Made by a program: the position numbers and the translations under genes. A model generated the notes under the pieces. The model made no database searches. It was not told the DNA's origin and saw nothing but the letters and a program-made list of their open reading frames with translations. A DNA stretch of 64,000 bases, taken from assembly GCA_044892525.1 (NCBI GenBank), contig CM097887.1, forward strand, positions 34,782,001-34,846,000, written 5' to 3'. This stretch comes from Schmidtea polychroa. Its lineage: Eukaryota. This document shows, piece by piece, positions 1-61,737 of the stretch (the first letter of the stretch is position 1; each line of letters starts with the position of its first letter).

Positions 1-59
1 CGGAGGCTAACTTGACTCCTTTCCAGACACCCAATATGATTTGACAAAATGATCTCCAT

Positions 60-196
60 CATGTGTACCCATGACGACGAGTCATGTTGGTGCTGTACAC
101 ATGGGTTGGAATCTGTGAGCAGGTAAGCCACTGTGATAGGACTACTCCTCACAGTATTCGCCGTTCGGGTTCGTGAATGCCGTTAGAAGGACTTAC
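60..196 (-). ncRNA. LTR-associated structured RNA motif, copy C1
   Basis: Minus strand reads GTAAGTCCTTCTAACGGC..AACCCG..[AATACTGTGAG/CTCACAGATT stem enclosing GAGT-hairpin-TACCTG]..[CATGTGTAC/GTACACATG stem with AGCACCAA bulge and CATGAC/GTCATG hairpin]. Homologous to six other copies in the window. Confidence 0.75.
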
Positions 197-480
197 ATCA
201 ATTCACTCTTGCCTCTGGTCCAAGTGAGGTCATTTAACATACATCTTATCTACTCGGGATTATGCAAAAATTTATAGTTATATACAGATACAGCAACAAA
301 AGGAGATATTAGACGCATGAGTATATTGAACACAGTACAAAGTTTCACATAGACATTTAAACTTATTAGCTCAATCAGCATTGGCCTCATCAAAATTTCA
401 GTTCAACTACGATCAATGACGAATTTTTGGGGAGATTTCGAGAAGGGATTTGTCTTTTACTCGCACTGTGATTCCGTGAT

Positions 481-1168
481 CTACATTTCACATTCAACTA
501 ACATAGCTGCAATGTCTGACTCTAAAGTTGGGTCTGGTACATGCATCGAACTGTCGACTGGGATGGTCCTGTATTGTGGAGTGGCAAGTAGGACTGGAGC
601 AGGTTGTGAAGGAACTTGGCTAACTGCTGTGACGGTGAACAACGTCGCTTACAAGGCCGATATCTCGTAACGGCGTTTCTTTGTCTTTTCGGCTCAGGTT
701 AGACGCTTCTTTTTCTGTGGATTCGACTGGGCTGCGATGGTAGAGATATTCTCTGGAACAGCAGGTGATTTCGAGACGCTAGCGAGAGTCGACTGTAAAT
801 ATGACATATGGTATTACAGCGTCATCGATTTGATGGTGAATTGGGAATACATTCCCTTTATACTCGCTAATCCGACGCTTCAGCTCCGCCTCGGAGTAGA
901 TTTGGTGCAAGGCCTCCGACTGAGCCTTGATTTTGAGACGTTGACATCGGCTTTCTTCGAGCAAGCTGTATCGGTAGTGCTCAAGCCGTAGGATCTTTTT
1001 ATTAGCGTCTTTCATAAGTGGTGGGGCAAACCACTTGCCCTCCAGCGTGTCGATACACTTTATGAGAACTCCAACATATTCGTTCAACTTTTGTAGGCTG
1101 TCATTTTTATCGGCACACGAGAAACACGGTCTCGGGCCGGTCGGTGGGAGATTCGGTTCTGACATCAA
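481..1168 (-). pseudogene. LTR-borne novel ORF family, copy A (frameshift plus 2 stops)
   Basis: MSEP..RPCFSCADKN..LEGKWFAPPLMK..LRLEHYRYSLLEESR..GNVFPIHH. Continues in a shifted frame as NPQKKKRLT*AEKTKKRRYEISAL*..DIAAMLVECEM*. TTTGTTTAG acceptor 3 nt before the ATG at 1165. Confidence 0.8.
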
Positions 1169-1752
1169 CTAAACAAATGCAGTTTGGTCATAAAATTCAC
1201 ATCAAAATAGTTAAAATAAATTGACGATCACTCAATCTCTGCAAGATCTCGCATACTATTCTTATACATTTATTCATTATTAATTTAGAGTAGTTATGTC
1301 TAATTTTTCATTACATCGGCGGGAGTGAGACTTCATCAAAGTTACATGGCTACTTACCCTTTTCCTGGTAATGGAAAAATAAATAATAATGTGCAATTAA
1401 CTATTTATGAAATTTTATGCTAGTGAGTTGTATTGATTCGTAAGGTTAGATTAAAATCGTTTGTATATCTGTTTTGTAGATACCCTCGGATTCTCTCTCT
1501 CCTACCACTTTATCTTGAGTCAATGAATATTATGCCCGATAAATGAAGATTGAATTTTTCTGAGGGTAGGAACCTGCGAGGCCCCCTGTTAAACTCCTTG
1601 CGTGCGGATCGCAGATGGTGCGCAAATTAATACTACAAACTGTGTTTCACTCGACATCCACTCAATGATTTATTCACATTACCTCCATAATTTTTAAATT
1701 AGCCACTGATATAATTTTCACATTAATTATTATTTATGGTTGAAAATGAGTA

Positions 1753-2656: not shown

Positions 2657-2962
2657 GTAGAAAAAATATAACATTCACATCATCGAACAATTTGTTTCAT
2701 AGTTATGCAAAAAGACTGTTTCGTTGAGGTAGTAATTAGGTCCCATATAGGTCAGAATTGGTAATATGGGCAGATCCTTGCTCAAATTTTTTGAATGGCA
2801 CGCTTAATAACATGAATTATTATAGAAAATCTAGGAAAACATTTATAAAATGAGAAATAAGGGCGAATCCCTGTGCAAAATTTTTAAAATTAACATTAGT
2901 AATGAAGACCATAATTAATCGAAAAAAGGACAACAATCTAAGAAAAATGAAGATATAATGAA

Positions 2963-3107
2963 TAGTAGTTCTAGTGGTAGAGCTCATTGATTTTCAGCCA
3001 CTATGTACATTACCAACATGGTTGTTGCCATGGATACGCAGATGGTTAAAAGTAATCATGAAGGCGGTCAGGAAAGAGTCGATGACACACCTCTTAAACG
3101 CCAACGA
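2963..3107 (+). ncRNA. Structured RNA motif copy C6 (internally deleted) plus LTR-end-like CGCCAAC
   Basis: AGTTCTA-GTGG-TAGAGCT hairpin and GTAC-ATTACCAA-CATGG..CCATG. Region 2760-3107 aligns with 57400-57847. Confidence 0.65.
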
Positions 3108-3267: not shown

Positions 3268-3562
3268 AACATCCGATTTCGCATCGAAAGATTTTGATTT
3301 AGTAATGAAATTGCTCGGGAATATGAGGGCGAACCAGAATGCGGCCGTCATGACGGTCCACAAGCTTTGAACGCGAATCGAGAAACTTAAGGCCCAATGC
3401 CTGGAAATGGAGCATTCCTGGTTTGAACCGACAGATTTGAAGAAGCACATATTAATCAGGAACCAGATCGATAAAATATCATTTAAATTTTTAGGCCGTG
3501 TCTCAAATCTCATTATACGTCAGTATAAATTGTTGTCGCGCTACCACAAAGAATTTCTATGA
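3268..3562 (+). pseudogene. Divergent relative of the LTR ORF family (fragment H)
   Basis: Translation ANQNAAVMTVHKL*TRIEKLKAQCLEMEHSWFEPTDLKK aligns to DKNAAVKQLQSEVEALKK..LEGxWFxPTQMK. No CxxC. Confidence 0.5.
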
Positions 3563-4743: not shown

Positions 4744-6024
4744 TATAAATCTTACCGTTTACCCAAATTTCATCATCACAGAACTTCCACAAATCCAACC
4801 TCTTTTGTATGGAACTTGTAGTTTTGTAAGACTGGATACTTTTAGTAATTAAAATTTGTCAGATTTTTTATAACTAATTTTTATTCAAAAACATTTATTT
4901 AGTAAACAATTATTTTATAATTATATATAAAAATTAATTAATTATTCAAATGATATAGTTTATTAAATATATGTAATACTTACATTAATAATAGGTGATT
5001 TCGAAAAGACAACTGGTTTCAAATCGGGACTAACAAGATTCTACAATTGAATATAAAATTTTATTACAATTTTAAATTACTAACATTTCTATCCATATTT
5101 GTTGATTAATAGTTAAAATTTAAACAACATAATAAATAAGGCAATCGTTAAATTTTATCGTTCATAGTAATATAACATAACAACGTATATATAATAAACA
5201 AAAATAACTCTTGTAATAAAAATATATTTATATTTTTCCAATTATAATAAGAAAATTTCAATTTTATAAGTTATTTTGAACTCTTAACTGAATTTCTATA
5301 AATCTAACTTATATATATTAAATTGTTACGGCAAATGAAAATGATGTCAATTTTAAAAATGAAAAATTAACAATTATTTGAGGGAGCAACATTATTACAT
5401 TGAAAGTTAAAAGGTTCTTGTGAACTTCTTATTTCAAGAATTTCTACGATTAAAAAATATCAATCACAATTCAAGATTAGTTCTTATATAATTTGTATAA
5501 GTCATCTCTCACGATGATTGAGTTTGATCCTCCCATGTACAATTGTTGAAAATAATAATGTAAGGTCGACACCCGAAATATTGCAAATGTTTTAATGCAG
5601 CAACAAAAAATAAGCACAGATCAGCATTAAGCTAAATCAAACCAACTCGAAGTTGCTGGGTTGATGGTTTACACGAGGACTAATAAAACCATTTGTGTTG
5701 TCTCTAACCCGATTTAACATTGTTCTATCCCTTGAAATCCATAGCGATATGACGTTAGTGATGTGCTAAATAGATGAATACTCATAAAGGAGAGTTTCCT
5801 AATTTTCTCGCCATTTCAATAATTCAACAGAGAATGTAAATCATTTATTAATTACATTTTTAATTACACTCATAACTATGGAATAAGTTTACTAGAATTA
5901 TGTTGGAGCGCCACTATGTCGACACAAGTTTTAACACCTGTCTAAATGATGAAGGTTAATTACCCAATTTACAAATACCGATTCTCGAACCTTAGTTTTA
6001 CCCCACACGATTGTTCACTCGATA

Positions 6025-6144
6025 TGGCACCCGTGATTCACATCATGTTGGTACTGTGCAATGGCGGCGAAACATGGTGAAGCAGGTGAGCCCTTGCCTC
6101 AGGACTTCGACTTACCCCTATTGATAGCCGATAGAAGGACTTAC
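6025..6144 (-). ncRNA. Structured RNA motif copy C2 (partly deleted)
   Basis: GTAAGTCCTTCTATCGGC, AGTCCT-GAGGCA-AGGGCT hairpin, CACCTG, AGTACCAACATG. Confidence 0.7.
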
Positions 6145-6370
6145 GTCTCGTCTCATTTAATTAAACTTTATAGAAAACCACTTTTCTTATTTCCTACTTT
6201 ACCATGATTTATTTTGACTGTCAGAATGTGTTACACTAGGAAGTTGACGGAAAACAAATAACAGCAAGAACATTGATTTATATACATTTGAAGGCGAGTT
6301 CAGTTAATTAGAACAAACAATTGCGACAGAAAACAGATAATAAAATAACAGCACAGATCCTTCTCATAGG

Positions 6371-7179
6371 TCAAAATGTTCCAATCACATGAATAGAGGC
6401 TGATTGTCTATAAAGCGTCTGCTGTGGCTTCTGCGAAAAGTTCGTCTTGATCGAAGGACTCAGCTGCATTTTCATCCCAGGGCGTATTCGTTGGAGGTAT
6501 GACACGAAACTGAAGAGATGGCGCGATGGGCTTGGATGTAAAAGCTTAAATGTAAAAGCTTGGATGGCTGCCTGAGCACTGTTGGCCATTAGCTTACCAT
6601 CCCTCTTGGCCTGTAGAACCTTCTTCTTTTTATTTCGCTCTGCACGAGTCAGCTGTCGTCTTTTCGGCTTACTCGGTTGCACTAGAAGAGTAGTTACGCC
6701 AGGTGGTGAGATAGGCTAAGGTACTATTTGACTAGTGCCGGTGATGTAGACGTTGGAGGTCGCAGGAGAGAGAAGAGATTCCACACAACCCTTACTTGAT
6801 TTTCCAGATGGCTGTCGAGCGAAATCCTGGGGATAATGATGAATCGGAAAGACGTTATCAGCTTTCGCGATTGGTATATTAACTATCTTCTTGGTGACGG
6901 TCGCCTGCACGTAGACCTTGTGCAGTGCCCCGGTTTGCTCTTTTATCAATAATCTCTGCGTCCTACTTTCCTCTACCAGGCGTAGCGACAATGCTTGCTT
7001 CTAGCTAGTTTCTTTTGGACTTCCTTCATTTGTGTAGGAGCGAACCACATCCCTTCTAACTGATCGATTTTTCGTTTTAACAGGCCTATCTGATCCTGTA
7101 AGATTTTGATGATTGCATTTTTATCGGCGCACGAATAACATGGCTTGAGGGTCGATGTTGTGGATGGATTTCCGCACAT
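6371..7179 (-). pseudogene. LTR-borne novel ORF family, copy B (frameshifted)
   Basis: KPCYSCADKN..LEGMWFAPTQMK, then VEESRTQRLLIKEQ..DNVFPIHH, then KPKRRQLTRAERNKKKK, across three frames. TTTTTCTGAAG acceptor 3 nt before the ATG. Confidence 0.8.
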
Positions 7180-7661
7180 TTTCTTCAGAAAAATAAGAAT
7201 GTATATGAAAACTACACACTACAAACAGACGACTAGAAAACGCCGTCGAAATTTGTTTTCAGAGTTCAGTGGATTGTTGCTTAGGATTTACCTTGTTGTA
7301 TTGATATGGGTGATTGCGATTAACGCACATGTTTTGTTATCTATCCTAATTATTTTGCTTTTTAGTGTTGACATTGAGACCAGGTGGTAGTTCGTTATTG
7401 GTTATCTCTGCTTATTTTATCAGTATCAACGATTTTCATATACCTCGCTGATTAACCATGTGTTTAAGTTTAAATATTCTCACGTGGTTTCGATATTTTA
7501 GGCGACTTTCTTCTGTTCTTCTCTTTTATTTAATTACGATAACGAATAAGATTGATTACTGAAATTTTCTCCAATTCTCAACCCAACAATTATTTAAAGT
7601 ATCTAAGTGTTTTCTTAACCACAGACGTCCATCATAATCATACGCGTTAGCTCATTCCTTT

Positions 7662-7895
7662 TGTTGGCGCTTAGGGAATGTGTTATTAAAATTCTCTAAG
7701 GTTGCTGTTAAATATATCGTTGATTCTTTGCTAAATGCCTTTTTGACTATTAAACTTTTTCAATCTGTGTACTCATGGGAGCGATCATGTTGATAATGTA
7801 CAAAGCGGTTGAAAATCAATGAATAGGTGAGTCCCACTGCTGGAACTACTCCTCGTTGCATTTTCGAGTTCATAACTGCCGATAGAAGGTCTTAC
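7662..7895 (-). ncRNA. Structured RNA motif copy C3 plus LTR 3' end
   Basis: GTAAGACCTTCTATCGGC, AGTTCCA-GCAG-TGGGACT hairpin, CACCTA. Ends AAGCGCCAACA at 7662, 234 nt after the donor. Confidence 0.7.
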
Positions 7896-8042
7896 GATGA
7901 TTTTCATTACGCATTAATTTTTTCGCTTATTGTTCATTTTTGTACATTTAATTATGGTTTTCCTTATTTGATATTATTAACGTTATTTTCAAAAATTTGA
8001 GTACGGATCTACCCTTATTTTTCGTTTTAAAAATTTTATTCA

Positions 8043-9127
8043 TGTTGGCGTTTACGGGAACAACGAAGAAAACAGAAAATTTAGGTGTTAGTAAATGTGT
8101 CTAGAGAAATTGGAAACTCCCGTAAAACGTCAAATGATTGATTTAAACCGACTAGGTACCCATGGGTTCGACCATGTTGTTAATGTACGGAGTCGTTGAG
8201 AACTAAAAACCAGGTGAGCCTCCATGTTAAGACTACTCTCTGTTAGACTTTCTGAGCGGGTTCTAGACTGTAGATAGAAGGACTTACCTCGACGATCATC
8301 AATCTGAAATCAAGGTCGTTATGCGTTCCTGGATCGTTGTTTTCGTGAGCTAGAGTGAGTTTCTGATACCAGAATCAGCGCAGCGCATGTGTTAGGTCTA
8401 TTACTCATGTAAACTACAACAACAAACAAAAATAAAAAAATTAATAACGAGACAAATGAGGAACATATGTTAGGGTTACGTCCCTGAAAAACCAACAACA
8501 AATACAAAAAACAAAAATGTTAGAACTGCCACATTCGGAGCAAGCGTCAGAGAGCTTTCTGCTCTGCGTCGGCCAGTAGCTGGTCTAGGTCGAACACATC
8601 GTCCGAACCTAGGGACCAAGAGAAATCCGTGCTGAAAGTCTGCATATCGATCATTTTTATTGTTGTTATTTTCATTTTAGATTTCAATCAATCTGATAGG
8701 TATATTTCATTTTTTGTTTTAATTCTTTGATTTTATTTTAAATTTATTTATTTTTCTTTTCCATCTGACTGGTTGAATAATCGCCATCTGATATCTTTCT
8801 TATCCCATGGTAAGATGATACTTTTTGCTATTTTTGTGTCTTTTTTCGGCGATTTGTGTTATTCTTGTGCCTTTAAATTATGTTTCGTGTGCAAATACTT
8901 GCTTTTTATCGACTTTATTACTTTTGTTTTAATTATTTTTATTCATGTATTATTTATTTTTGTTGTTCTTGGTGTTATTTTTGATTTTGAATATTTTTGG
9001 TGCATTTTATTTGTCGTGTGGGGTCATCTCAGCTGACTATTTACCTTCAATTATTTACTAAATGAAAATTTTAAGAAAAGTAGGAAAAGAAAGAACAGAT
9101 ATTGTTGTTTCTGGGCTTAGCCCAACA
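8043..9127 (-). mobile_element. Internally deleted copy (F) of the ORF-bearing LTR element, with ORF C-terminus (8548-8654) and RNA motif C4 (8150-8287)
   Basis: TGTTGG...CCCAACA termini, flanks TTCA/TTCT (3 of 4 match). VFDLDQLLADAEQKAL* matches the copy E tail FVLEQLLQEAEADAF. Motif stems GACTCCGTAC/GTACCTAGTC and AGTCTT/GAGGCT. Confidence 0.7.
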
Positions 9128-18251: not shown

Positions 18252-18341
<90 letters not shown>

Positions 18342-19903: not shown

Positions 19904-19941
<38 letters not shown>

Positions 19942-33659: not shown

Positions 33660-34459
33660 GATATGAAATTTAATTCATTTATAGCAATTTATTTATTTTG
33701 ATAATAAACTTTTGGGAAAACAATTCTAGTCCTAGTTTTACTCCGGTCGTCTTGAGTCTTCGATTTTTTACAATGAAAATTTCTTGCGGTTTATATAGTT
33801 TTCTATCTATAATCATATTCATTGATTGGGTCGCAAATAAAATCCGATTAAAAATTTAGAATTAGAATTGACAGATGGTCGGATATCGAGGTTTGAAAAG
33901 CATCTATGTTCTGCAGGCTGCTCATCGACATTTTATTTGAATTAGGATTGCAGAAGAGTCGCAGTTGTTCCATGAAAATTTTTCACAAATCAATATTGGC
34001 TGTCATCACTAATGCGCTAGTTTTGCATATATAAATGGGTCAAATAGCATGAACCCGCAGAAGAATTTCACACGATTCTTTGCCATGTATGTACGATAAA
34101 ATGGCTATTTCACACCAGCTCAAAATATGACGGTGAGGGATGCATTGAACGTTTACATTGTATTGTATTGAAGTGGTGGTATTGCAGTGGGTTTGAGCAT
34201 TGAATAGCAGATGCTTTAAGGTTTGAACATCGAAGAATAACCCACTGTGTCACTTCTTTGAATAGCAAATCAAAAAGCGTTAGCTGATCAGTTTCCTTAG
34301 TTAAGTACCTCTCACACTCATTGAGGATGTTTCGTTGTAGTCTAATATTACGTAAAAATTGTTTAGGCCACTGAACTTTATTACATACCTTTTGTTTGCC
34401 TTAAATTTCATCCGAAGAAGTATACCATATATAGTCGCGTATAAGTTGAAGTGACATTT

Positions 34460-35085
34460 TGAAGACATTTGTCATAAATTGGAAACCCGCGTAGAAGTAA
34501 AAAAATTTAAGATAATTATTGGTAAAATAGACTGTTGATAAATTTATTAAAAATCCTAAGGATCCATGTTTGAGAAAATCTGGGTGTGATTTTGTTGAGG
34601 TGTGTGAGTCTGACTAGTTCAATAAATTAAATAGTTAGTATTGCCGTACTCAGAAGGTTTTAAGGATTATAAAGTGAAGATAAGAAAGCAGTTAGGGAAT
34701 TTAAACTATAGGATAGTGTCAACTTCATGGAAAGTATGCAATATGTTTATTAATAAGTCAAAAACTCCGGTCGAATTGTGTTCCGATCTCGTTTATCAGT
34801 TTACATGTAATGGGTGTAATGCCATATACATTGGAGAGACTTCCCGTCATCTCTGTATTCGAGCTCGAGAACATTGTAGACCGAAGGCTTTGACCCATAT
34901 TGGTGAGCACAATACGGGCTGTAAGATTAAAATAGGTATGTCTGATTTTAAAATTTTATTAAAAAATTTCGATAATTATTAGAAACGTGTGATTTGTGAG
35001 GCGTTGTTGATAAAATTATTGAATCCGAAAATTAATGTGCAGAATGCTGTAAATACTTGTGTTTTGAGTGTTTTTAAATAAGTTT
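34460..35085 (+). mobile_element. Penelope-like retroelement 3' remnant (RT thumb plus GIY-YIG endonuclease)
   Basis: LPYSEG..LVYQFTCNGCNAIYIGETSRHL..RAREH..DFKIL..ICEALLIKLLNPKIN. Confidence 0.85.
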
Positions 35086-35369
35086 TTTTTATATTGTATG
35101 TATTGATTGTTGACGCTTTTATCGAACAAAAAAAATCGAACCTTCGGATAATCACATGCAAGCTTAATAATTAACAGTAAACCAAATTACATACGCTAAG
35201 ATCACTAAGATTTATTGTAATTCACCTGAGGCAAGCAGTATTTACAAATTATTTTAGGATAACACATCGAATACAAAGTATACAGTATGCAAACCGTTCG
35301 TATGAAATTGAAGGAAATCAAGGTTCCAGGCTGGAGTTGCTAGTTAGAGAAATACTTCCCCTTCGGCCG

Positions 35370-37156
35370 TCATGGCGTCAATGTCACTGGAAGTCGGGGG
35401 ACCTCGAGCAACCTTGTCTGTCCCGCTGGAACGGGGCGATATATTTTTTCTGTTGGCGGCGCCTGTTTCTGCGAAATCTCCTTGATTGAGGTTTGAGCGG
35501 CAGATAAGGGGCCATCCATATATTATGTACGCAAAAAAACCACGAATTTTGACACCCCCCTCCCCCTGTTGCATCTCGTACATTTTCACCCCCCCCCCCC
35601 AATGCGTACGTTGCTCGGCGGTCCCAACCCGTGTATTAAAATGCATTAAATATAAACATTTAAAACAATTTCTTTTTAATATAAAATGTATAATATACAG
35701 ATAAACCCATTTAGTTGTTACTGTAATGGTTGTAGATGCGTCTTACGTATGTAATAATTATGTGAGTCAATTAAAAACTATAAAACACGACTAATTACCA
35801 ATCTAATCATAATTGTTCATAGAAGTGTATACACAAAGATATCCTATAACCTAAACTGAATATAATTTAATACAATGAATAACATAAACTAAAAATTGCG
35901 CATTGCAGTTTATCCCTTTAACCATCCTCCGTTTCTAATCCAGTTTGCAACCACTCGAATAAATTCTGAATGACTGGCATCGCGCTGTTCTGCATTTCAC
36001 TGACAAATGGCATCAGAACCACATCATCATCAGCTTCGATTTTACGGAGCAAGAAGATTGATATACTTTTTGATTGGTTAGTTTTTAATAATACGTAAAT
36101 GGCACATCAAGAACATATTGGTATTATTAAAAACTAAAACTATTAAATCAAAAAACATCTCAATCTTTTAAAATTAAATTAGTACCAATAGTAAATAAAT
36201 TCGCATCAATGTTGAATAAAATAGGAAATCACTAAATTTCAAATAATATTGCATTTATACAAGCCTTGCTCTCGACTATATTAAAATATTAAGACTGTAA
36301 TATTGAGAATTCCATGCGTAGCAGTGACAGTATACATGTCGCCTAAGGTCATGTGATAATGCACAGCCCATGCGGTAACCTATTATATATAAAGGTTTCA
36401 TATGGGAGTATTATAACAAATCATTTTATTTTATTCCTTCGCATGCCTTTGTTGGAACACCCTCCTGCATACGCACCCGTACGCAAAACATTCACTCGGA
36501 ACACACACCCCCCTCCCCCCTCGGTGCGTACGTAATATATGAATGGCCCCTAACGAAGCTTCCAATGCCGCGATGGTGTCTCGGCTCTTCTGGTTTTTCT
36601 CCGCTCGTGAAGGGCGTTTACGTTTCTTCGGGGCCGAAATGGTTGCTGAAGCAGATTGGAGAGTCGATGGCGTTGAAGGCACGCTCGGAACTACAGCTGG
36701 CTGGAGGTTCGATGTCTTGGCTGTTCCCGACAAAATCGGCTCGTTGATGGGTGGTAACTGAAATCCATGGCCTGCACAACTAGTCGACAGTCATGACCCA
36801 CTGTCGCTCTGATGGTGATTTGGGAACACGTTGGTTCCATCCTGAATTGGGTATTCTCGTACCGTCTTTGAAATCTAGGCTTCAGTGTAAACCTTGTGAA
36901 GCGCCTCCGATTGGGCCTTGATTGTCAGCCGCTGACACCGGTTTTCTTCTAATAGACTGTCTCGGCAGTGCTCCAATCTCAAGATTTTCGTCTTTTCTTC
37001 TTTCATCTGTGGTGGGGAGAACCACGTGCATTCGTATGTTTCTATACGTTTTTTGATGGCCCCTATGTAAGTATGGAGTTTCCGAATATCTTCATTTTTG
37101 TCCGAGCAAGAAAAGCACGGTCGGAGTTCGTTGTTCGACGAGCTGGGTTCACACAT
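35370..37156 (-). pseudogene. LTR-borne novel ORF family, copy C (split by a MITE)
   Basis: MCEP..RPCFSCSDKN..WFSPPQMK..LRLEHCRDSLLEENR and APKKRKRPSRAEKNQKSR..ALEASL|SAAQTSIKE. The frame is restored by removing 35508-36550 plus one TAA. TTCTTTATAG acceptor 2 nt before the ATG. Confidence 0.8.
35508..36550. mobile_element. TAA-TSD MITE (Zator/Harbinger-like)
   Basis: TIRs GGGGCCAT(C/T)CATATATTA(T/C)GTACGCA, exact TAA TSD. Confidence 0.85.
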
Positions 37157-39411
37157 ATCTATAAAGAAGAAAATTTTCGTCATAGTCTGGAAATAGTTAT
37201 TTGGATATCCTAATGAAGTCAGATGGATTTATAAAAATGTCTCGTTAAATTTCGGTTTTACTCGAAGGAGAAGTTATATATATCTTAATGAACTACCATA
37301 TAGAGAAATCACGCAAGACCACCGCCGCTTTGGCCGGTTTCAGTCGATGAGGTACATTGCTCAGAAAAACAGGTTTAAATTGAAATCTCAAGTCAAAAAA
37401 CTTTGTTGGGAAACAAACAAAATGTACATGTAAAGCATACACACCATATATAAACAAACATTAAATATTAATAATCGGTGTAGTTTCTCTATTCCCTCTA
37501 CTAATTTAGTCGGGTTCATCATACATTCGAGCAGCGAAATGATAGCTTAGAATATAATACATCATACGTAAAGTTTGTCCTAATGACGGGAATAACCGGG
37601 AAGGACTTGATCGAAAACGAAAAACGCATTTACCAAATTAAATTAATTCGTTTCCCTGGCACCTCGGTAGTTTTTCCCAATTAATTCACTCAGGATTGTC
37701 GAAATATCAATGTAATTATAACCTGATCCTCTTACATAATTAAATTAACAGTCAATATCGAGGTGTTATTGATGAGACGATGCAATGCCTTAGCATCAAT
37801 ATTCGCAATGCGTGTAGTTATGTTGGTTTCGCTATTTGTATGATGATGTGATTTTTCTTTACATCAGTGCCCGCAATGCATCTAGCTATGTTTATTTTTG
37901 TCATTACAATTGCAACTATGAGTTTTGATCTACCCACCTGACGCTCAATCTCGGATTTATCTGTCGGGTAATGAATTGTTCTCATTGACAGCTATACTGA
38001 TCATTTCCTATTAGAGAGTGGTGTCTTTTCATCTGCTGCATTTTTCCACTGTGATTATTTATCAGTTTCTAATCATGATAAAATCGCTAAATGCCAAAAC
38101 ATGACAAAGATAACTAACAGAGAGTGTGTGTAAGAGGCATCGTTGAAGACAGGCAATGACGGCTTATCTTATCTTGGACAGTAAATATTTATGATTTGCT
38201 TACTATGAAATTAGATTTTTTAGACCGACAAGACAATATCCACGGAGAATGTCTGGATTGATCGGGCGAATTCTCCATCGATTAAACAAAAATTATCAGG
38301 TTCGGGAAATTCCCGTTGACTTTGCCCTATCAAGATAAATCGATTTGCTGGAACAAAGTAGGTAGACGCTACTTTTATACATGACGAATGTAAAGGCGAT
38401 CCTCTTTTACAGGACTATTGAGGCGAAAGGTGGTCTGCTGATGATACTATGAAGACACGACTACGGATTGCCTGACGATGGCGAGTAGAGAAGGCGAAGC
38501 TTCGCTCCGGGCGATTAACGATAGTTGAACTTGATGGAATTATGATTATCAGTTTGGAATTTCATCTAAATCTCTAACTCGATCACACCTAAATAAAGAC
38601 CTCTGGATTTTCATCTCACTCTCATTAGTCCGACTCGGAGTTTCTCCACTCCCCACGACACACCCGAGAACCGTAGACATTGCTACCCACCGTCCTCGCA
38701 TCATCATGAGGGACAGATCGACTCAAATGAATATGATAAAAATGGAAATATCATTTAAAATTGTAATTCATATCACGAATGATCAATCAACACAATTAAG
38801 TATAAATAATTTACCTGGCGACTATGCCATTTGGATTTTCAATCATGATACCTTCGGCCAACTTCCCATCCATCCATCAAAACATCACATAATTACTTCA
38901 TATTCAAGTTCGGCGAGAGTTCTGACTACTTTTACATTCGATAACCTCCAACACCACCCAATCATCGTTTTCATACTCTCGGTTGATAAAAATTTCCCGC
39001 AACAGTGTGTTAGTCATTCATTCCATGTTTCTGTTCTTCATTGGATCTTTTCCGTGTCTTCAAAATAATGTTTGGCATTCCTCGGCATCATGATCGAACT
39101 CCCAGATAGCACCGTCGCCAGTCCCGTAAAGAAGAAAGAAGTCCTCATTATTTAAAAATAAAAATTTATTTAATTGAATCTTCAAATATCTACTACATGT
39201 CTTCGTTATATCAATTAAATCTATCATGACAAACAATTTCAAACCATACCTATAATCTCGAAATTGAATTAGTAAAGCTGAATCGGCAATGAGCTATTTC
39301 GCAATATCTCCTTAACAGTTCGGATTTCCCAAAAAACAAATCTTTTCTTTGCAATCGATTCTGATGAACAGGTAGTGATGGTTATTTCTTCCTAGTCGAG
39401 TGAGTCTATAG

Positions 39412-40130
39412 TGTTGTAATATCGGTATTGAGTCTGTAGTTATTCCTGTGGTGATCTGTAGTGATTTTTGCAGTGTTAATTATGATCATAAATTAAAATT
39501 TTTACCCGTAGTGATTTTTGCAGAGTGTTAATTAAATGATTTTGCGTTTGTGTTATATATTAATTTTGGTCCAATCAGGACGGAGTTGTGGTGCATTTTT
39601 TATTTATTTTTGTTATTTTTTGATTTTTTAATTGTTTTAATAAACATTATTTATCATTGTTTTATTATTATTGTTATTTTATTGTTTTATTAACAATTTT
39701 ATATTTTCTATGCTTTTTTCTAGATTTTCGTTGTCTCTTATAGGTGTAATAGTTTGTTTTAATTCTTCGTACAAATTTTGTTAAAAATTTATTTAGTTTA
39801 TGTTTGGATTTGGTTTTTCGTTTTTGCATTGTATTTTCTAAATTTGATTTTATTACATTATTTCCCCTTTTGTTAGTTACGCGTAGTTAATACCCTATTT
39901 TCTATAACTATTTTTATTTCCAGTGATTTTTATTTTTTAATTGTTTTGTTTTTCTTTTACTATTTATCTCAGTTTCTCCTGATAGATTCTTCTATTTTTT
40001 TAATTTATAGTTATTTTGATTTAATTCGGTTAAGGTTACCTCTATTTGCCTATTTTACTTTTACTTGGCGTTTTCTCTTATACCCGATTCAGCTCTATCT
40101 TGTATTGCAACTTCGAGGTTTAGCCCAACA
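39412..40130 (-). mobile_element. LTR-like unit
   Basis: Right end TAGCCCAACA as at 2656 and 9127, T-rich interior. Left boundary and TSD not confirmed. Confidence 0.45.
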
Positions 40131-40646
40131 GATGCAACCTTGAAAGGATTGCCGCAATCCAGCGCGGTTTGGACTACCCGTGGAGCCAGTTAAGCAAGAG
40201 CCAGTGAGCAACAACAAGCGCTCACAGGAGACGCGGACGCCCCCGAAAGGTGCCACCAAAGCAGTAAATCGATCAAAATCGCTGTGATGACATATATATT
40301 GTGCATTCACTTTTTCCTTGATTAGAACTATAAAAATGTTGTTTCATTCATTTGAAATTATAATGACGAATAAATTATGTATTGATGTCGTGCGTTTGAA
40401 TAAAATGTATTTGTATTTGAGCGATATCCTCCTGAGAGATAGAGATAGGCCCGGGAACCTCACGTTCCGAATAACTCTGAGAAGGACCGAAGTTATTGTA
40501 ATCGTGGTATAAAGCAGTGCACTCGAGGTCATTGACTCTCCTCTCGTCATTAATACTAACAAAATAAATGGCATTATTGATTAAGAAATAAATGAATTAA
40601 CTAAACTATAATGATAGTTGTCGCTATCCATCTCCTAATTTTAGTG

Positions 40647-40950
40647 ATGAAGTTAAGGGAAAATATGCAGCAAGACCGGGAACGAGCCCAGGATGCAGAA
40701 GCGCCTGAAACTGATCCAGCAGCTACAGCTTAGGAGCGCCCAGGATCAGATGGAACTACGAGCTCTCCGCCTGAGGACTAGAGAACTGGAAGCGCAGTTG
40801 CATCATCAAGAGATAGAAAAGGACGCGATCGCCCGAATCCGGCCTATGGCGGAACTCGTAATTCCACCCAGTGGTTCGGTATCGTCTGCGCCCCTCAAGA
40901 AGAAGAACTGTCTTGGTAAGGCGACACAAGCCAGACAACGACAGGCATAA
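40647..40950 (+). pseudogene. Possible distant relative of the LTR ORF family (G)
   Basis: CCTAATTTTAG acceptor 2 nt before an ATG. After a frameshift: ELRALRLRTRELEAQLHH and APLKKKNCLGKA. No CxxC or WFxP motif. Confidence 0.35.
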
Positions 40951-41044: not shown

Positions 41045-41529
41045 AAAAATAGATCTTTCATCTTGAAACACTGAAAGAACAGTTTGAAAAAAGATTTGAA
41101 CAGTTTGCTATTATAGAACCAATAGTCATCTTTCTTGTAAATCCATTTACTAGCCAGGAAAATTTAACAGCATTAGCGACATCAATTGGAATACTTATTG
41201 AAAATAGAGCAGAGCATCTAGAACTTGAGATTTTGGATCTTAAAAATGATATTGTGCTGAAATCGTATGTAACAGAGGAACAATTTTGAAACTTAGTTGA
41301 GAAAAAAAAGTTTCCATTGTTAAAAATTGCGGCATATAAAATAAAATCGTTCTTCGGTTCCACATATTTATGCGAAACGTTGTTTTCAACAATGAATATA
41401 ATAAAATCCAAAAACAGATGTCGAATTATCGAAGAGCATCTTGATGATTGTCTGCGAACAGGAATATCAGCTTACATCTCTAATTATGAAACATTGGCCA
41501 CTGATACTCAGTGCCAAAAATCACATTGA
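41045..41529 (+). pseudogene. hAT transposase C-terminal remnant (SPIN/GTF2IRD2-like)
   Basis: FLVNPF..LELEILDLK..FPLLKIAAYKIKSFFGSTYLCETLFSTMNIIKSKNR..HLDDCLR..QCQKSH*. Confidence 0.85.
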
Positions 41530-42254: not shown

Positions 42255-43924
42255 TTTCCAATTTAGTGAGTAGTAGATTAAACTGAGCGCATCATAACAC
42301 AATTTTTTTAGTTAGGATAGAGTAAATTTGTCTCAGGAGATTTAGTAAGGTAAACCAATTTTCCCACTGTCAGAATGACGTCAAATCGGCACACAAGGCT
42401 ATCGTAAGAAGATGAAATTTTTTGCCGAAAGGGCTACAATTAGGAAATTTACTAGAAAATTGTATATTCGTTAATATGCACAAAAGATTAAAATAAGTAC
42501 CTAATATGAAAATCCCACAGTAGAAAACACCAGCCTAGATGAGTATGACTAATGCATTATACAAATAGCCAAGCTAATTTAGCAATCTTTAAAATTGATT
42601 TAGGAAAATTGAATAACGACATCAACTTTTCCTTTTGAGTAATCACGGGATTATTATTAGACAAATAAGTTATAGACAATTAACATGTCCAATAAATATA
42701 TGTAAGTGATAATAAATTAGAAAGTTTAGTAATAGACATAAGGATAACGAAAAACTTCACTGTTCTGCATAAACTTTTTTAGTTAAATAAATAATTAAAA
42801 TTCGCTGTCGAAGAAATCCAAGTGAAACCCATTAATTGCAGTTGGATTTAGGCAAAATTCCCGACACAATTTTCATTCATAATTTAGTGCTGTTTCAGAT
42901 CATAGGATGAAGCAATTCTCGTCTAGCAACCTGAGAGTAAAGGCATCACAGTAGAGGCTCCCAACGTCGACCTTTCACCGAATAATATTCACTCGTTCAC
43001 GGTGTCTGAGAGATAGTTTACCAAGAGCATAAACACTGGAAATGACCAGTCACCATTCTAACGCCTAGTCAAACGCGTAAGATCCGAATAAACCTTGATT
43101 TTTCATACTCGCAATGTGTTTAGGTTTACAAAATCAATAACATCAACATCGGTTGGTGAAACGCCGTTACTATACAACAGGTGATAGACGAGTATAACGA
43201 TTCAGGACAGTTCATCAACAAGGTATTAACTGCCAAGCCTACTGATTAATACACAAATTGAACAGCTACCACCTGATTTTTTGGTTCAACTATCCACGGC
43301 AGTTTTGTTTTTGATTTTTATCACAGATCACTCACCATTCAGTTTCATCACGTTAAATAACGATACTGCTTTACAATCTCCTCTAGTTTCATTTAATGTT
43401 TATGACATCAGTAGTTTTTTCTTTAAATTTTGTGCATGCGGTTGTCTATTTTTAATCTGTCTCAAATTATTATCTTATAACATAATATATACAGGGTTAT
43501 ACAGACTTACTGATTAATCTCATTCACTATAGTCCTTCACTAATCTTCATTAATCCATTGGGTTGCTATCTACTGATATCACATTGCTATCCACCAAAAA
43601 TTTCATTGAATGATAAAGACGTTTGGGCCCATCGGGAGTCGTCGAATAACAACGTTCATGTTTAACCTGTTCTCAATTACTAAAATGCTGTAAAACACAT
43701 TCGAAGATTAGATCGAATTTTTTTTGCCGATATAATTTGATTTAATTTCTAAATTTAATAATTATTAAACAATCACTGGTCTAACCAATAAATTCCGTTG
43801 TCACCCCCTGTTGAATTTAGCTCTTACCGACTGTTGTTGAGTGACGAGTGGCTGACATATATATGTTGAGTGAAAATTATACTCGGATTCATATGATATC
43901 TAGTCTTAATGATTCGATTTAGAA

Positions 43925-44693
43925 ATGGCTTAACCAAATGCGAAAACCTCCAATCTGCGACCTTGTTTCTCTTGTGCGAACAAGAATGCGTCAATGCTCA
44001 CACTGCAAACCAAAATTGGCCATTTGAAGAAACGAATCGATCCCATGTAGGGGACATGGTTCACCCCCGTCCAGATGAAACAAAAAAATAAGAAAAAACT
44101 TCCGTCTCGAACACTACAAAGATAGCCCATTAGAAGAGAATCGCTCACAGCGTATCCTCATTCGAGAATGATGTAGAATTCTCCACCAAATGTACACCAA
44201 CTCAGAACTCAGGAATCGTATCGCAGAATGTCATGCTGCATATCAAGTGAACACCTTTCTCGTCACCATTTGACTGAAGGTTCAAGTTCACCAAAACGAT
44301 CCACATGTCGAGGACATGGGAACAGTAAAGTTGCGTTGCCTGTTCCAGAGGTGATCTACGTTGGTACTAATGTGGCCCAGTTGCCACCGCGGCGCCTGTC
44401 ATGGACACGGCTCTATCCATCGCAACTGAAAACCCGAAACGCAAATCCTGCACTCGGGCGGAACGGACGCAGCGTCAGCGCGAAAAATAGGCAGAGTCGG
44501 AAGATACTCTAGCTGCCACCCATGCCAAAGAAGCCACCCAGATACCAGCCACACTAGAAACTTCAAAACGCCCGTCGTATAGAATAATATCCGCCTCCGG
44601 TACACAAGACAAACAGATTTTGTCCTCGAACAGCTGTTGCAGGAAGCCGAAGCGGATGCGTTTTGGGAGTCATCTACCCCAAACCCAACCTAA
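43925..44693 (+). pseudogene. LTR-borne novel ORF family, copy E
   Basis: LRPCFSCANKN..WFTPVQMK..LRLEHYKDSPLEENR..NPKRKSCTRAERTQRQREK..FVLEQLLQEAEADAF, with several stops and frameshifts. GATTTAG acceptor 2 nt before the ATG. Confidence 0.8.
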
Positions 44694-44933
44694 CGGTCTC
44701 ATTTCTTCTTCGACTCTGTTCGCCTGTAATATGCGTTAACTCTGTCGATATTCTGTAATAATTATAATATATATTTGTTCCGAAAATTTGCACTTGAATG
44801 TGTTTGGTTACATCCTCTTTGAATGCGGTTAGAAATGAAGAATAACTGATGGTTGTAATTTGGTCGCGCGGTAAATCTTGATTCACGTTCTCCAACCAGT
44901 ACCAGTTGGACGATAATAGTTCTGATTAGAAAG

Positions 44934-45174
44934 GTAACACCTTCTATCGGCACTCTGGAACCTGTGTAGTTGTAACGCAGCAGCTAACCTGATCTATAGT
45001 TTTCGCCAACTTGGGGCATTACCAATATTGACTACTTTCGTATGATTTAAGAATCATGTGGGTGTTTCGAATGGTTGATTTTGAAAGACTAAGTATGATG
45101 ATAAAAGAATAAGATGACAGATGCATTCTAGACTACCTGAATGATGTGTGTCAACCTGAAGGGAAACCCCAACA
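44934..45174 (+). ncRNA. Structured RNA motif copy C9 plus LTR 3' end
   Basis: GTAACACCTTCTATCGGC, AGTTGT-AACGCA-GCAGCT hairpin, AACCTG, ATTACCAA. Ends CCCCAACA at 45174. Confidence 0.7.
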
Positions 45175-45995: not shown

Positions 45996-46322
45996 ATGAG
46001 TAAGAAACAAAACCCTAGTGATTTCTTAAAAGCCATTAGCGAGAAACCTGTTCTCGTCAAACTAACTACTGGTGCTGATTACAGAGGTCTGAAAATTAAT
46101 AATTTAATTAATAATTTTATATTTGTTAAGGGGTTTTAGTGTCATTAGATGGATATATGAATTTGATGCTTGAGCAAACTGAAGAATATGTCAATGGTCA
46201 ACTTAAAAATAAATACAATGACACATTTATCAGAGGAAATAATGGTATAGAATAACTTTCATGATATTTTAATTTGATATTGTTTAGTGTTGTACATAAG
46301 CACTCAAAAACGAGGACGATAA
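45996..46322 (+). CDS. LSM6: U6 snRNA-associated Sm-like protein LSm6, 3 exons
   Basis: [70 protein letters not shown], with two ~43 nt GT-AG introns. Confidence 0.95.
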
Positions 46323-46345: not shown

Positions 46346-47998
46346 TTACAATTTTTTTAATTCATAAATAATTATGTTCTTTAGTTCTTCTAAAATGTCA
46401 TTTTCATTTTCGCCGTACATTAATTTAGTAATTATCATGGTGTCATTCTTTATTTCTTCATATACCTCCTTTTTGATCTTGGATAGTTTATCACCGTGAT
46501 TTTTAAAACCTTTAAATACCTTAATCAAATTTAAGAAATTAAAATTATTACCATCCAACATAATTATGTTAACACATTTTCTCATAATGTTGTCTAATTT
46601 GTGTTTAATACTGATGGAAGAATTTTCGACTATTTGACAGTTTGCCATGTCAGCAGTTATATCAAATGGATTGTTGAAACAGACGTCAAAAAAGTTTAAA
46701 ACTTCATTCCACCTAAAAAATAATGGTTTTAGGGGTTTATGAATGACTGATGTGTACATTATGATTAAACCTGATAATTTACATCTGATGTAAATTAAAA
46801 TTGGTTAATTTTTGCTGTATTTTTAAGACAGTAAGTCCCATCGCCAATATTAATTATATGAGTATGTGACTTTAACAATCTAATATTTATATATGCAAAC
46901 AAAGATCCCTGATGCTAACAAAGTTCGTGCACTAAGATAAGGAACTTATTAAGAATAATTTTTCAATGCCACCGAAGACCCAGTACTTTATACCAATTAG
47001 AACAATAAGAATATAACTAGTGATTCATGTAGCTCGTTATCCCTTGACATATATAATGAAAATGTTCAAATTCTTTTTAACCTCCTATATAAGTTACAAT
47101 ATTGTATTGATAAATAGTGAAGTGGTGTTTTCGTATTGTCGTAACAGTCGCAGTAATGCAAAATTTCAAATAATAAAAATCGTACATGTAGATTAAGGTA
47201 TATAATATTCTTATTCTCTACGACAGTTTCTTTGATAAATTCAATATTTCTAAAATCCATAAGTTCATATAATTAAACTTATCAATCACAATTTTAATTA
47301 GAAATAGTACATTCAAGACTTACGGTTTGTTCTCAATCTCAGTATTTAATAAAAACACCCATTTTTCCCAATAAGTGAATTTTGGAATTTCAAACAGACG
47401 ATTAATTCTCATGAAAGATTTTGATGAAACACAATTATTAACTCTATTTACAAATCTTTCTTTTAAAATGTTGATGTTACATTGACATAATACAGTTGCG
47501 AAACTTAATGAATCTAATATAAAAGTAATATTTAAAATAAATCTATGCACATACGTTTCCTAGCAATTTTAAAAACCTCGTAACGCATACTTCGATAAAA
47601 GAAATTATCATCTATTAAAAAAATGTATTTCTTATTATCATTAACTGGGCAGATGTATCTTAAAAAATTAAAAACATTTTGTTTAATTAAATGTGGTTTA
47701 AATTTATCAGAAATAAAAGTTTCACATTTATTATGCAGAAAATATTCCAAAAACATGCTTAATCCTTCAGAAACAGCAGTTCTGCAATTTTTCCAGCTGC
47801 TTAACTGAACAGACATAAATTAACACAATTTTCATTTTGATTTACCTGAAGTTCATCAATGGATAAATGATTATCTAAAAAAAAGTCATCATATTTTAAA
47901 TGGATAATATGATATTTGGTTTCCTGTAGTGTTAAAAATTTGCAAAATGATGATTTTCCAACACCTGGTAAGCCTATAACAGTTACTAATAAAATCAT
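46346..47998 (-). CDS. PSTK: L-seryl-tRNA(Sec) kinase, 4 exons
   Basis: Walker A GLPGVGKS, YDD, LIDDNFFYRSMRYEVFKIARK, LFEIP..YWEK. Last exon FNNPF..IKHKLDNIMRKCV is joined in phase across a ~610 nt intron. Confidence 0.85.
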
Positions 47999-51896: not shown

Positions 51897-53993
51897 GGAT
51901 GTACAACGAATTACCATTCCGATTCCGCTTACGTCATTCCAGTTTGCATTTTCCATCACTTATTCCGTGATGACACTTCCTCCTGCTTAGAAGGCTGCAC
52001 ATACAACAGCAACTATTTTCCAAAAAACTAACCATTATTTTATATAAGCTATTACCTGTATTCAATTGACTAGAAATTGATCCAGAGTCGACTGAGTTTC
52101 TAACTATTGGATCCTTGTTTTCAATGCGTGGATGTCCATTTGGTCCTAAAAGACCAGCGTTTGTAACTGACTTATCTGCTTCATCCACTTCTGAGTGTCT
52201 TCTGAGAGGAACCATTTAATTTCTAACTCGTACGTCCTCCTCTTGATCTTATCAACTCGAGTACGAAAGACTTCTACCAGTTACATTGCAGCGTCACTGT
52301 CCGCTATCATGTTTTCGACCAGTTACACCACTAAATTATAACAGTTAAAAAGATGCCCATTTTCTGGAACTATAAGCAAAGAAAAAGGAGAGTGGAAACC
52401 ATAATCCCTAGGGTGTAACTCTTAGCCATAGTTGGAAGGAAGTGCAAACTCTGCCAATTGGCCTCGTGGACCTTAATATAATTCAATATGAGGTCTTCTC
52501 TTCATTCGTACTGTGATCGATATAGCAAGTCATCATCATTACTAAATATAGACTAGTTGCGGATGTCTCGTTCCACTCGATACTGTTTTCTCATGGTCAT
52601 TAACGCCATATGAAAGGCTCTAAATCTGTCCGAACGTACAAGATTAAGATTAAGCTCTTGCTTTATCAGTTTCATAGGAGCGATTTTTTCAGGATCTGAG
52701 CTCATACCCGCTCGGCAGTCGAACTTGTGCTTACTTGTCTATCAGTGATAACTCCGATTCCACATCTCGACATTTTCTCGGCTTTCGTCGTAATACCTAT
52801 TTTCTGAATCGTATACAACAATCAAAAATCACCCCTACCTCATACAACCATCAAAATTGGAAAGAAGATCTTGAATAACAACATTTGTAATACCTTACAT
52901 CATTCAACAATATATTCATACATACAAAGAGGCTCCTGACGCATACATTCCAGACATCTAAACGTTATTTAGGGACAGCCCCAAAGGAATAAATGGAGTT
53001 TCATTTGACTATCAATTTTTTTCATTACAAACCGGCGAGGTGAAAATAAACTGTTTACGACATTAACCATAGTTCCAATTAAATTTCCTCATCGCATTAT
53101 TCCATTGCATAATTTATCTCTTAGTCTATATCTCTTTGTTTCCCATTGACTATTTTTAGTTGCTGTTCACAGAACGCAGTAGTATGACATGTAAACACAT
53201 CATTGTCCATTAAAGGGTTAAATTAGCTTTCTTCGACCTCACATTTGTATGATTTTAAGTTGACTTTAATTCTTGAGTTGCCTAGCTGTTGTATTATTAT
53301 TGCTGAAAAACAACAAACACTAACTTTTAATTTTTGCTAAACATTTGGTATACATATTCTTTTATCCAATACTGAGTGAAAGTGAATAAAGTCTAAATAT
53401 TGTTAATATGTAAAAATAATAAAATGATTATTTAACTTACTTACACATTTTATATAAATTAAGGATTACTGTCAATATGTGTAGTGACAGCAAAAGTTAA
53501 TTTGGATTGAAATGGAAAGTATAACACTTTGTTTTAATATTGAAGTAAATAATTTATTTAAATTAAGCATTTGAAGATTTTAAGCTGTTAAATGTTTTAA
53601 ATTTTAGACAAATAAAACTGAAAAAAAAGATTGTTTATCATGTGCGGTTATTGGAGTTGTAACACCAGTTGTGATTTGTTCGTATCTCATGATTATGATG
53701 AAAAATACCAAATTGAAAGGATTTAAGAAGTTTTCATTCATGTCCACGTGTAGTTTAATGATTGCCGGTAACGTTATAAGATTTTAAACATATTATATTT
53801 ATTATAGGATTTTCATATATGGGAGTTAGCCGTTACCTAAATAAATAGAGTTGTATTTGAAATTTATTTGTAATCCGTAAAATTAAATTCAATCCAAATT
53901 TCTTCCGAATTAAGTTTTCTTTTATATCCGAAAGGAATGATCGTAATCCAGAAATATAATAGATCTTTGTGTGCCCATTATACAGTGTCTTAA

Positions 53994-60675: not shown

Positions 60676-61737
60676 TAGATGCGATTTAAGGCCTCAGATT
60701 GAGATTTGATGGTGAGCCTCAGGTTGCGATTCTCTTTTAGAAGGCTGTCCCTACAGTGTTCCAACCTTAAGATTTTTCGATTCGTCTCCTTCATTTGTGG
60801 TGGGGTGACCCAGGTTCCTTCCAAGAGCTCGATGAGTTTCTTTAAGGCCTCAACTTCCGACTGTAACTGTTTTACAGCTGCGTTTTTATCTGCGCATGAG
60901 AAGCACGGACTGAGTCACGATCTCGGCAGCGTTGGTTCTGCCATTTCTACAACGAAGGTGTTTAAGGACAGTTATTTCAACTTTCGGAGGGTTAGTCCGT
61001 TGAAAAATATTCCATTATCATCATTCAAATTACCCAACCATCTAAAGAAGTGGGAAAGGGAAAGAAAACAAAAAAACCCCGGGAACTAGTTGTCCCCACT
61101 ACTCATGCAATCACAATATATTGTACCGAATATATATAAGTTATATATAGGCTAATTGAATTTACACTTTAATTGCGAGATATAGACACGCAACCTTATT
61201 TTCCTCAATCTTGTCGAGTTGCTCTCAGATTTATTTTTAATTAAACTATCCGCGTAGATTATATCAGGTTGGTGTGTAAATCTATCAGTCGATTTATACG
61301 CGATTTCCTCGACTATGTCTCCACGGCACATTTGTTTATGTATTATTGTTATTACCAAATGTCACTCTGATGTAATCACTATGATTATTAACGGAAAATC
61401 CCTAAATGGTGGTAATAAACACTTAAAACTAGCAGATCGTCAATCAAGTAAGCATAGATCGAATTCCTAATGCGGTGCTGATAAACAATTACGGAGTGTC
61501 TGACTTTGATCTGTCAGATGGTTATCATGGGCCATTAGTGGAAAATGGCGCTCGTCTTATGGTCGATTCACGTATATGTATAACTATGATTTGTTGGAAA
61601 TTCGTGGGCTTTACACGCTTGTCACTGTTCGATGAGAGATTTCAGCCTAGTAATGTGTATTCGGATTTGGAATTTATTTTGCTGTATTCAACCTACTGAA
61701 AGACGGATTTATTGGCCTAAGCGAGTTAATAAGCGAG

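What the first reader, a model, noticed from the sequence alone, without database searches (positions are those of the whole stretch)
37154..37180. Every ORF copy has a 3' splice site 2-3 nt before its ATG
Seen in sequence: A TTTGTTTAG-TTG-ATG, B TTTTTCTGAAG-AAA-ATG, C TTCTTTATAG-AT-ATG, D CTTCGTTGTAG-AA-ATG, E GATTTAG-AA-ATG, and the distant G CCTAATTTTAG-TG-ATG. The position is conserved although the surrounding sequence is not. Inference: the protein is made from a spliced mRNA. The donor is either nearby in the LTR (e.g. GTAAGT at 1358 in A) or is the conserved donor of a 5' LTR joined to the 3' LTR, as for MMTV sag/rem-type subgenomic RNAs.
Basis: partly seen in the sequence, partly recalled or inferred. 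Interest (0 to 1): 0.7.

Follow-up and report, generated by a model that had tools for sequence, protein, structure and literature searches.

The report
Splice acceptor in retrotransposon LTR gene
Old copies of a jumping-gene end repeat carry an unknown gene that always starts right after a splice signal, so its message was probably built by joining on a piece from far away, as some retroviruses do.

Summary
Synonymous sites among A-E are saturated (0.28 identity), so descent alone does not explain it. TAG is not the stop of an upstream ORF. The acceptor and a roughly 250-codon, now broken ORF (coiled coil, basic tract, acidic tail; no known family) lie inside long solo LTRs (TGTTGG...CCAACA, exact 4-bp target duplication in B). 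No shared nearby donor exists: A's GTAAGT at 1358 is real but private. LTR orientation is unresolved and no RNA data were available. Verdict: a real acceptor of an LTR-borne accessory gene; a new variant of a known arrangement.

The parts
37159..37175 (-). Copy C 3' splice acceptor (T tract, TAG; AG at 37160-37159), 2 nt before the ATG
36552..37156 (-). Copy C ORF, 5' part (first stop at codon 94; interrupted by a 1-kb inverted-repeat insertion 35507-36551)
35344..35506 (-). Copy C ORF, 3' part with acidic tail
39571..40130 (-). Candidate LTR start of C (TGTTGGGC at 40130) and A-rich 5' region, similar to the region upstream of D
   Evidence: end of this LTR not found
5901..7588 (-). Copy B: complete 1688-bp solo LTR, TGTTGG...CCAACA, target duplication TAAT/TAAT
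7177..7193 (-). Copy B acceptor (AAG, 3-nt spacer) and ATG 7179
6004..6144 (-). Copy B conserved block R (GTAAG 18-mer, hairpins), 1035 nt after the ATG and 243 nt before the LTR end
1163..1177 (-). Copy A acceptor and ATG 1165; LTR start candidate at 2656
41..196 (-). Copy A block R, 969 nt after the ATG
1353..1358 (-).
60942..60957 (-). Copy D acceptor and ATG 60944; ORF cut at 60675 by a Tc1-like insertion, resumes near 59100-58900
43916..45174 (+). Copy E: acceptor, ORF (ATG 43925), block R at 44934, LTR end at 45174
3292..3500 (+).
40634..40947 (+). Copy G (second subfamily, internally deleted): acceptor and ATG 40647
52050..52345 (-).
8043..9127 (-). Copy I: 1085-bp solo LTR that keeps only the ORF's last codons and block R (8287); flanks AGAA/TGAA
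55798..57847 (+). ORF-less relative: 2050-bp solo LTR with block R (57604), target duplication AAAG/AAAG
7662..8040 (-). 3' part of an ORF-less relative with block R (7895), ending 74 nt before B's LTR
2758..3105 (+). 3' part of an ORF-less relative with a partial block R

Best explanation
The AG is a 3' splice acceptor that was under selection in the active ancestors of a long-LTR retrotransposon family. The family carries an accessory gene of about 250 codons inside the LTR (N-terminal coiled coil, proline-rich linker, Lys/Arg tract, acidic tail: probably a nuclear regulator of the element's transcription or RNA export). The gene is a single coding exon. [quoted passage not shown] Shown: sequence, conservation, LTR termini and target duplication, lack of a shared near donor. 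Inferred: that splicing occurs, the donor, the strand orientation, the protein's role. All copies here are dead solo LTRs or fragments.
For: Acceptor in 8 of 8 copies despite saturated synonymous sites, versus 261 of 2216 background; AG-free zone 10-60 nt versus a background median of 11; upstream frame closed within 1-25 codons in 8 of 8. LTR anatomy: B and the ORF-less 55798-57847 element have exact 4-bp duplications, the only 2 of 45 TGTTGG...CCAACA pairs 0.8-3.2 kb apart, where about 0.3 are expected. Block R lies 969-1035 nt after the ATG in 3 of 3 copies that have both, and 233-244 nt inside the LTR end in 5 of 5; its 18 nt are 0.89 identical versus 0.42 and 0.54 on either side. Four of 6 sense donors score 2.1 or more on an approximate matrix of mine, a level reached by under 5% of window GTs and by 4 of 10 host donors. 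TATA-like words 80-166 nt upstream of the block in 4 of 6. [quoted passage not shown]
Against: No RNA evidence. No two-LTR element, PBS, polypurine tract or gag-pol was found, so orientation is unproven. The exon side of the sense donor varies (GAT, GAC, ATC, GAG, GAC, AAG) and scores span 0.2-7.1, while the opposite strand has a steadier donor (4.3-6.8 in 6 of 6). Hairpin mismatches are 4 A-C versus 1 G-U on the ORF strand, leaning weakly to the other strand. An AATAAA upstream of the block is seen in only 2 of 6. The block is conserved for 18 nt, more than a donor needs. Block R was not found near C, D, F, G or H, and LTR ends were not mapped for F, G, H.
Confidence: 0.42

Rival explanations
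1. The AG is a spliced-leader (SL) trans-splice acceptor: RNA started in or read through the LTR has no upstream cis donor, so the host leader is added 2-3 nt before the ATG. It can coexist with cis splicing (cis in two-LTR elements, trans in solo LTRs).
For: No shared cis donor upstream; very short fixed spacer (2 nt in 6 of 8). Flatworm leaders end in ATG (PMC12582326 passages): that AUG would be in frame in A and B and meet a stop at once in F and G. An unpaired 5' acceptor is said to suffice, and flatworm SL acceptors are often shared with cis splicing. The gypsy element Cer1 has an SL1 trans-spliced RNA (PMC3315495 passages). Block R read on the other strand matches the printed start of Schmidtea SL1 at 8-9 of 10 and a tapeworm SL3 primer at 11-13 of 17.
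Against: In C, D, E the leader AUG would open 25-35-codon out-of-frame uORFs, in H 8 codons. That the host is a planarian is my inference; no call names it. The SL likeness was noticed after the fact and is weak alone: 24 window matches at 2 mismatches versus 32.8 expected, 0.02-0.5 expected per LTR end depending on threshold.
Confidence: 0.27
2. The ORF is antisense to the element, or uses a donor in the internal region that is absent from solo LTRs; the sense GTAAG is then only the complement of a structural motif.
For: Opposite-strand donor AG/GTRAG is stronger and conserved in 6 of 6; 4 of 5 wobble-type mismatches in the hairpin favour that strand; termini are symmetrical. MMTV's second sag RNA uses a promoter and donor in env.
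Against: It would make the conserved 240-nt block the LTR's first part and leave 1.4-4 kb for R-U5, which is unusual (my knowledge); fold z-scores do not favour that strand; the sample is small.
Confidence: 0.13
3. Each lineage has its own 5' UTR intron inside the LTR, with a donor whose position has drifted (A at 189 nt, B at 109, D at 87, F at 132).
For: Those four GT sites score 2.8-5.5; donors can shift by indels in saturated flanks.
Against: C, E, G, H have no comparable site within 280 nt; 8 of 10 host introns here are 41-47 nt and no copy has a good donor at that distance.
Confidence: 0.1
4. Not a splice site: a translation-start context or transcription initiator (TTAGT-like), or the stop codon of a lost upstream ORF.
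For: With a 2-nt spacer the G sits at -3 of the ATG; TTAGT occurs in A, F, G, H.
Against: In A and B the AG moves with the T tract, not with the ATG; B has AAG, not a stop; upstream frames are closed and unrelated; AG-free zones are long.
Confidence: 0.08

Closest known systems
MMTV sag (PMC3026287, passages)
   Same: Long LTR holding an accessory ORF; acceptor just upstream of that ORF; remote donor.
   Different: Here both acceptor and candidate donor lie inside the LTR, 410 nt to about 3 kb from its start; no Pfam match to any family; invertebrate host; splicing not shown.
Errantivirus env spliced subgenomic RNA (gypsy, ZAM, idefix, springer; PMC4276936 and bioRxiv 10.1101/2023.08.03.551782, passages)
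   Same: LTR retroelement expressing an extra ORF through a remote donor, with the junction at or next to the start codon.
   Different: env lies between pol and the 3' LTR and encodes a fusion glycoprotein; this ORF lies between the LTR termini and looks like a small soluble coiled-coil protein.
Cer1 of C. elegans (PMC3315495, passages)
   Same: Gypsy-type element whose short spliced RNA can take the host spliced leader.
   Different: Cer1's RNA is multi-exon and shares peptides with Gag; no LTR-internal ORF was mentioned in the passages seen.
Burro giant gypsy elements of planarians (PMC6431247, passages)
   Same: Large planarian LTR elements with accessory ORFs; size class fits LTRs of 1.7 to about 4 kb.
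   Different: No sequence comparison was possible; described accessory domains are internal; identity with Burro is untested.
Rev/Rem-type and HBZ-type retroviral regulators (Rem; Rev and HBZ motifs recalled)
   Same: Spliced small ORF; Arg/Lys tract (RRRPNRNSRRRERRR in P0002); LxxLL-like tail in E and I.
   Different: Resemblance of composition only; no sequence or fold support.

Membership tests
Solo LTR of an LTR retrotransposon | TG...CA termini with short inverted repeats | tested here: met
   TGTTGG...CCAACA at both ends of B, I and 55798-57847; one end for A, C, E and two ORF-less relatives
Solo LTR of an LTR retrotransposon | 4-6 bp target site duplication | tested here: met
   Exact 4 bp in 2 of 3 elements with both ends, 3 of 4 in the third; no matching start among 12 candidates for E
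Ty3/gypsy (Metaviridae) element | gag-pol with PR-RT-RH-IN order, PBS and polypurine tract | tested here: inconclusive
   None found: Pfam on 150 of 168 stop-free frames plus 7 ORFs and on read-through flanks of C, D, E, H, PDB (65, 77); expected for solo LTRs; no genome-wide search available
MMTV sag-type arrangement | ORF inside the LTR with an acceptor just upstream | tested here: met
   B: acceptor and ORF between the termini; U3 assignment depends on the unresolved orientation
MMTV sag-type arrangement | Spliced RNA from a 5' LTR or intragenic donor | not testable with these tools
   No RNA data
MMTV Sag protein family | Sequence match to the family | tested here: not met
   No Pfam family at E up to 1 for the open parts of A and C
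Errantivirus env | Third ORF between pol and the 3' LTR | tested here: not met
   ORF lies within LTR termini in B; untested for F, G, H
Flatworm SL trans-spliced gene | Acceptor at the first exon with no upstream cis donor | tested here: inconclusive
   No shared near donor, but single copies have candidates and start sites are unknown
Flatworm SL trans-spliced gene | Leader-bearing transcripts | not testable with these tools
   No RNA data
Primer-binding site (tRNA-primed or self-primed) | Block lies just outside the LTR end | tested here: not met
   Block R is 233-244 nt inside the end in 5 of 5

The most novel reading that the evidence does not exclude
The LTR is built around the host's spliced-leader system: the leader is trans-spliced onto the acceptor, and its 5' end then pairs with the complementary 18-nt block about 1 kb downstream, which is followed by hairpin, U-rich stretch, hairpin like the intron half of an SL RNA. 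That pairing would control use of the GTAAG donor (masking it, or closing the ORF exon into a circle), with the Arg-rich coiled-coil protein acting on the structured block in the manner of Rev.
Probability: 0.1. Interest if true: 0.8.

Novelty: new variant of a known kind. Interest (0 to 1): 0.45.

Why it matters
LTR-encoded, spliced accessory genes are known from complex retroviruses. Finding one in an abundant invertebrate retrotransposon family (9 ORF copies in 64 kb) would extend that design, and each solo LTR would scatter a strong acceptor plus ORF through host introns. Five of the six database relatives are already fused to unrelated host domains in gene models, so the element at least corrupts annotation and may act as a gene trap. 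If the leader is the donor, it is a transposon using host trans-splicing. I found no paper describing this ORF or arrangement in searches (open-access library only; repeat databases were not searchable).

Tried and rejected
Protein family or fold: no Pfam; no longer relatives from A alone; five then one more unnamed relatives only, all from one source set. The model has helices 17-42, 48-89, 92-103 (pLDDT 74.6, pTM 0.38) and gave no Foldseek match; the wide search gave only generic helices, best Z 5.7, delta antigen Z 5.0; atlas hits were weak or absent. Pol or integrase remains upstream of C, D, H looked plausible by eye but got no support (one search was the wrong frame). TAG as stop of an upstream ORF: rejected. 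Block R as a known RNA family: no Rfam match; as primer-binding site: wrong place; as an SL RNA gene: no upstream pairing partner, similarity ends after 18 nt. Penelope-like origin: the GIY-YIG remnant beside C is absent beside the other copies and is best read as a separate insertion. Whole-block folding z-scores were mostly near zero (only 57604 reached -3.8). The first 7 nt of the planarian leader could not be found in print (supplement of PMC12582326 unreadable), so that part of the match is recall only.

Full report
Check of the observation. The window is AT-rich eukaryotic DNA with short-intron host genes and many repeats. All six strings quoted are present; the finding's coordinates are copy C, ATG 37156 on the minus strand. 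A to E are homologous at 43-60% amino-acid identity. A profile search and tblastn found two more copies, F (3305 +) and H (52328 -), which with G form a second subfamily; a ninth copy, I, keeps only the last codons. F and H were not in the finding and both have TTTAG 2 nt upstream, so 8 of 8 testable copies carry the site, against 261 of 2216 ATGs in the window. The copies share ancestry, but neutral positions are saturated: 0.276 identity at four-fold sites over 87 pairwise comparisons, against 0.63 and 0.70 at first and second codon positions, and no pair of 5' flanks aligns (28 pairs). Invariant A, G and T(-5), with T(-3) and T(-9) in 7 of 8 and AG-free zones of 10-60 nt, therefore point to selection on a 3' splice site in the source lineages. 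Ten host acceptors read by eye from this window have T at -3 in 8 and A in 2, so B's AAG is allowed. If TAG were a stop codon, the frame before it should be open; it is closed within 1-25 codons in all eight.

What it is. Every copy is broken (first stop at codons 2-129; C split by a 1-kb insertion, D by a Tc1-like element). Read across the breaks the ORF is about 250 codons: helical coiled coil (model), proline-rich linker, Lys/Arg tract, acidic tail. It has no Pfam, fold or atlas match. The only relatives are six unnamed proteins of one source set; five are fused to unrelated host domains (SNF, CRAL-TRIO, GDC-P, L21, PF00005), as expected of a dispersed repeat caught in gene models. A host protein of the window has its best hit (96% over 97 residues) in the same source set. 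I take the host to be a planarian-type flatworm; this is inference from recall, and no call names it.

The LTR claim holds. B lies in a 1688-bp unit 7588-5901 that starts TGTTGG, ends CCAACA and is flanked by TAAT/TAAT; an ORF-less relative 55798-57847 is flanked by AAAG/AAAG; I (9127-8043) matches at 3 of 4. These two are the only exact duplications among 45 candidate end pairs, with about 0.3 expected. No end has a PBS or polypurine tract beside it, and no gag-pol was found (150 of 168 stop-free frames were scanned), so these are solo LTRs. For E no start with a matching duplication was found among 12 candidates; F, G and H have no mapped ends. A 140-nt block R occurs seven times. It begins with an 18-mer starting GTAAG (present in six), lies 969-1035 nt after the ATG and 233-244 nt inside the LTR end, and has a hairpin with 63 of 72 Watson-Crick pairs and two-sided changes in three columns.

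How it most likely works. The donor is thus remote. I rank first (0.42) the join from block R's GTAAG in a 5' LTR to the acceptor in a 3' LTR, because the block is conserved, lies downstream of TATA-like words in 4 of 6 copies, and would keep its hairpins only in unspliced RNA. Against it, the exon side varies, the opposite strand has a steadier donor (4.3-6.8 versus 0.2-7.1), hairpin wobbles lean 4 to 1 to that strand, and orientation is unknown. Second (0.27) is spliced-leader trans-splicing: flatworm leaders end in ATG and often share acceptors with cis splicing (PMC12582326 passages); that AUG would be in frame in A and B, stop at once in F and G, but open 8-35-codon uORFs in C, D, E, H. 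Block R's other strand resembles flatworm leaders (8-9 of 10 to the printed Schmidtea SL1 start, PMC10899757 supplement Fig. S6; 11-13 of 17 to a tapeworm primer; scored), but this was noticed after the fact and is not enriched window-wide (24 versus 32.8). An antisense ORF or internal donor (0.13), drifting local introns (0.10) and a non-splicing role (0.08) remain. Overall, about 0.9 that it is an acceptor.

Comparison with what is known. It works like MMTV sag (PMC3026287 passages) and errantivirus env splicing (PMC4276936 and bioRxiv 10.1101/2023.08.03.551782 passages); Cer1 is the precedent for leader use (PMC3315495 passages). It is not a member of the Sag or Env families by sequence or position. 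A link to Burro (PMC6431247 passages) is untested. Other papers seen as passages only: PMC7346339 (supplements searched), PMC2770079, PMC8532177, PMC11410931, PMC4558846, PMC5832876, PMC8629364, PMC7653826. The supplement of PMC12582326 could not be read and may hold the full leader sequences. Searches showed no description of this ORF or arrangement in their listings; repeat databases and subscription journals were not covered.

Verdict. A real, selected splice acceptor of an accessory gene carried inside long LTRs; donor unresolved; a new variant of a known kind; interest 0.45.

Noticed in passing
window 37181-37193 (-): C has a second acceptor-like TTCCAG 3 nt before an in-frame ATG at 37183, nine codons upstream; not seen in other copies.
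   Followed up: partly
window 57411-57570 (+), 2758-2900 (+), 7990-8040 (-): ORF-less LTR relatives carry a once or twice repeated 35-nt motif where others have the ORF's 3' end; its other strand reads AATTTTTG plus a short stem, like an Sm site.
   Followed up: partly
window 5901-9127 and 1-3105: Family members cluster and nest: I abuts an ORF-less relative that ends 74 nt before B; A, another relative and F are adjacent.
   Followed up: partly
window 10820-11704, 15205-16185, 50046-51896, 24270-24503, 58113-58804: A second repeat family of about 950 bp that also starts TGTTGGG and holds 17-nt tandem repeats; two copies face each other at 51004.
   Followed up: partly
window 29951-32182 (+): Intact 743-codon ORF with no Pfam family above cut-off, between inverted repeats at 29320-29432 and 32453-32559; looks like a DNA transposase, inside a PNPO-like gene's intron.
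   Followed up: no
window 53994-54656 (-): Intact 220-codon ORF starting MGCC (lipidation-like start, recalled motif), no Pfam hit.
   Followed up: no
window 34635-35080 (+): GIY-YIG remnant (E 0.005), Penelope-like, tail to tail with C where block R would be expected.
   Followed up: partly
window 59559-60437 (+); 35507-36551: Tc1-like transposase ORF inserted in D; 1-kb inverted-repeat element inserted in C.
   Followed up: partly
window 3734-5050 (-), 16900-33660 (+), 45997-46320 (+), 46346-48001 (-): Host genes: RSRC2-like (SMAP domain), PNPO-like, LSm6-like and a kinase-like gene (last two names recalled), with 41-47-nt introns.
   Followed up: partly
window 13409-14424 (+), 18548-18949 (-), 41053-41526 (+): hAT transposase remnants.
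   Followed up: no
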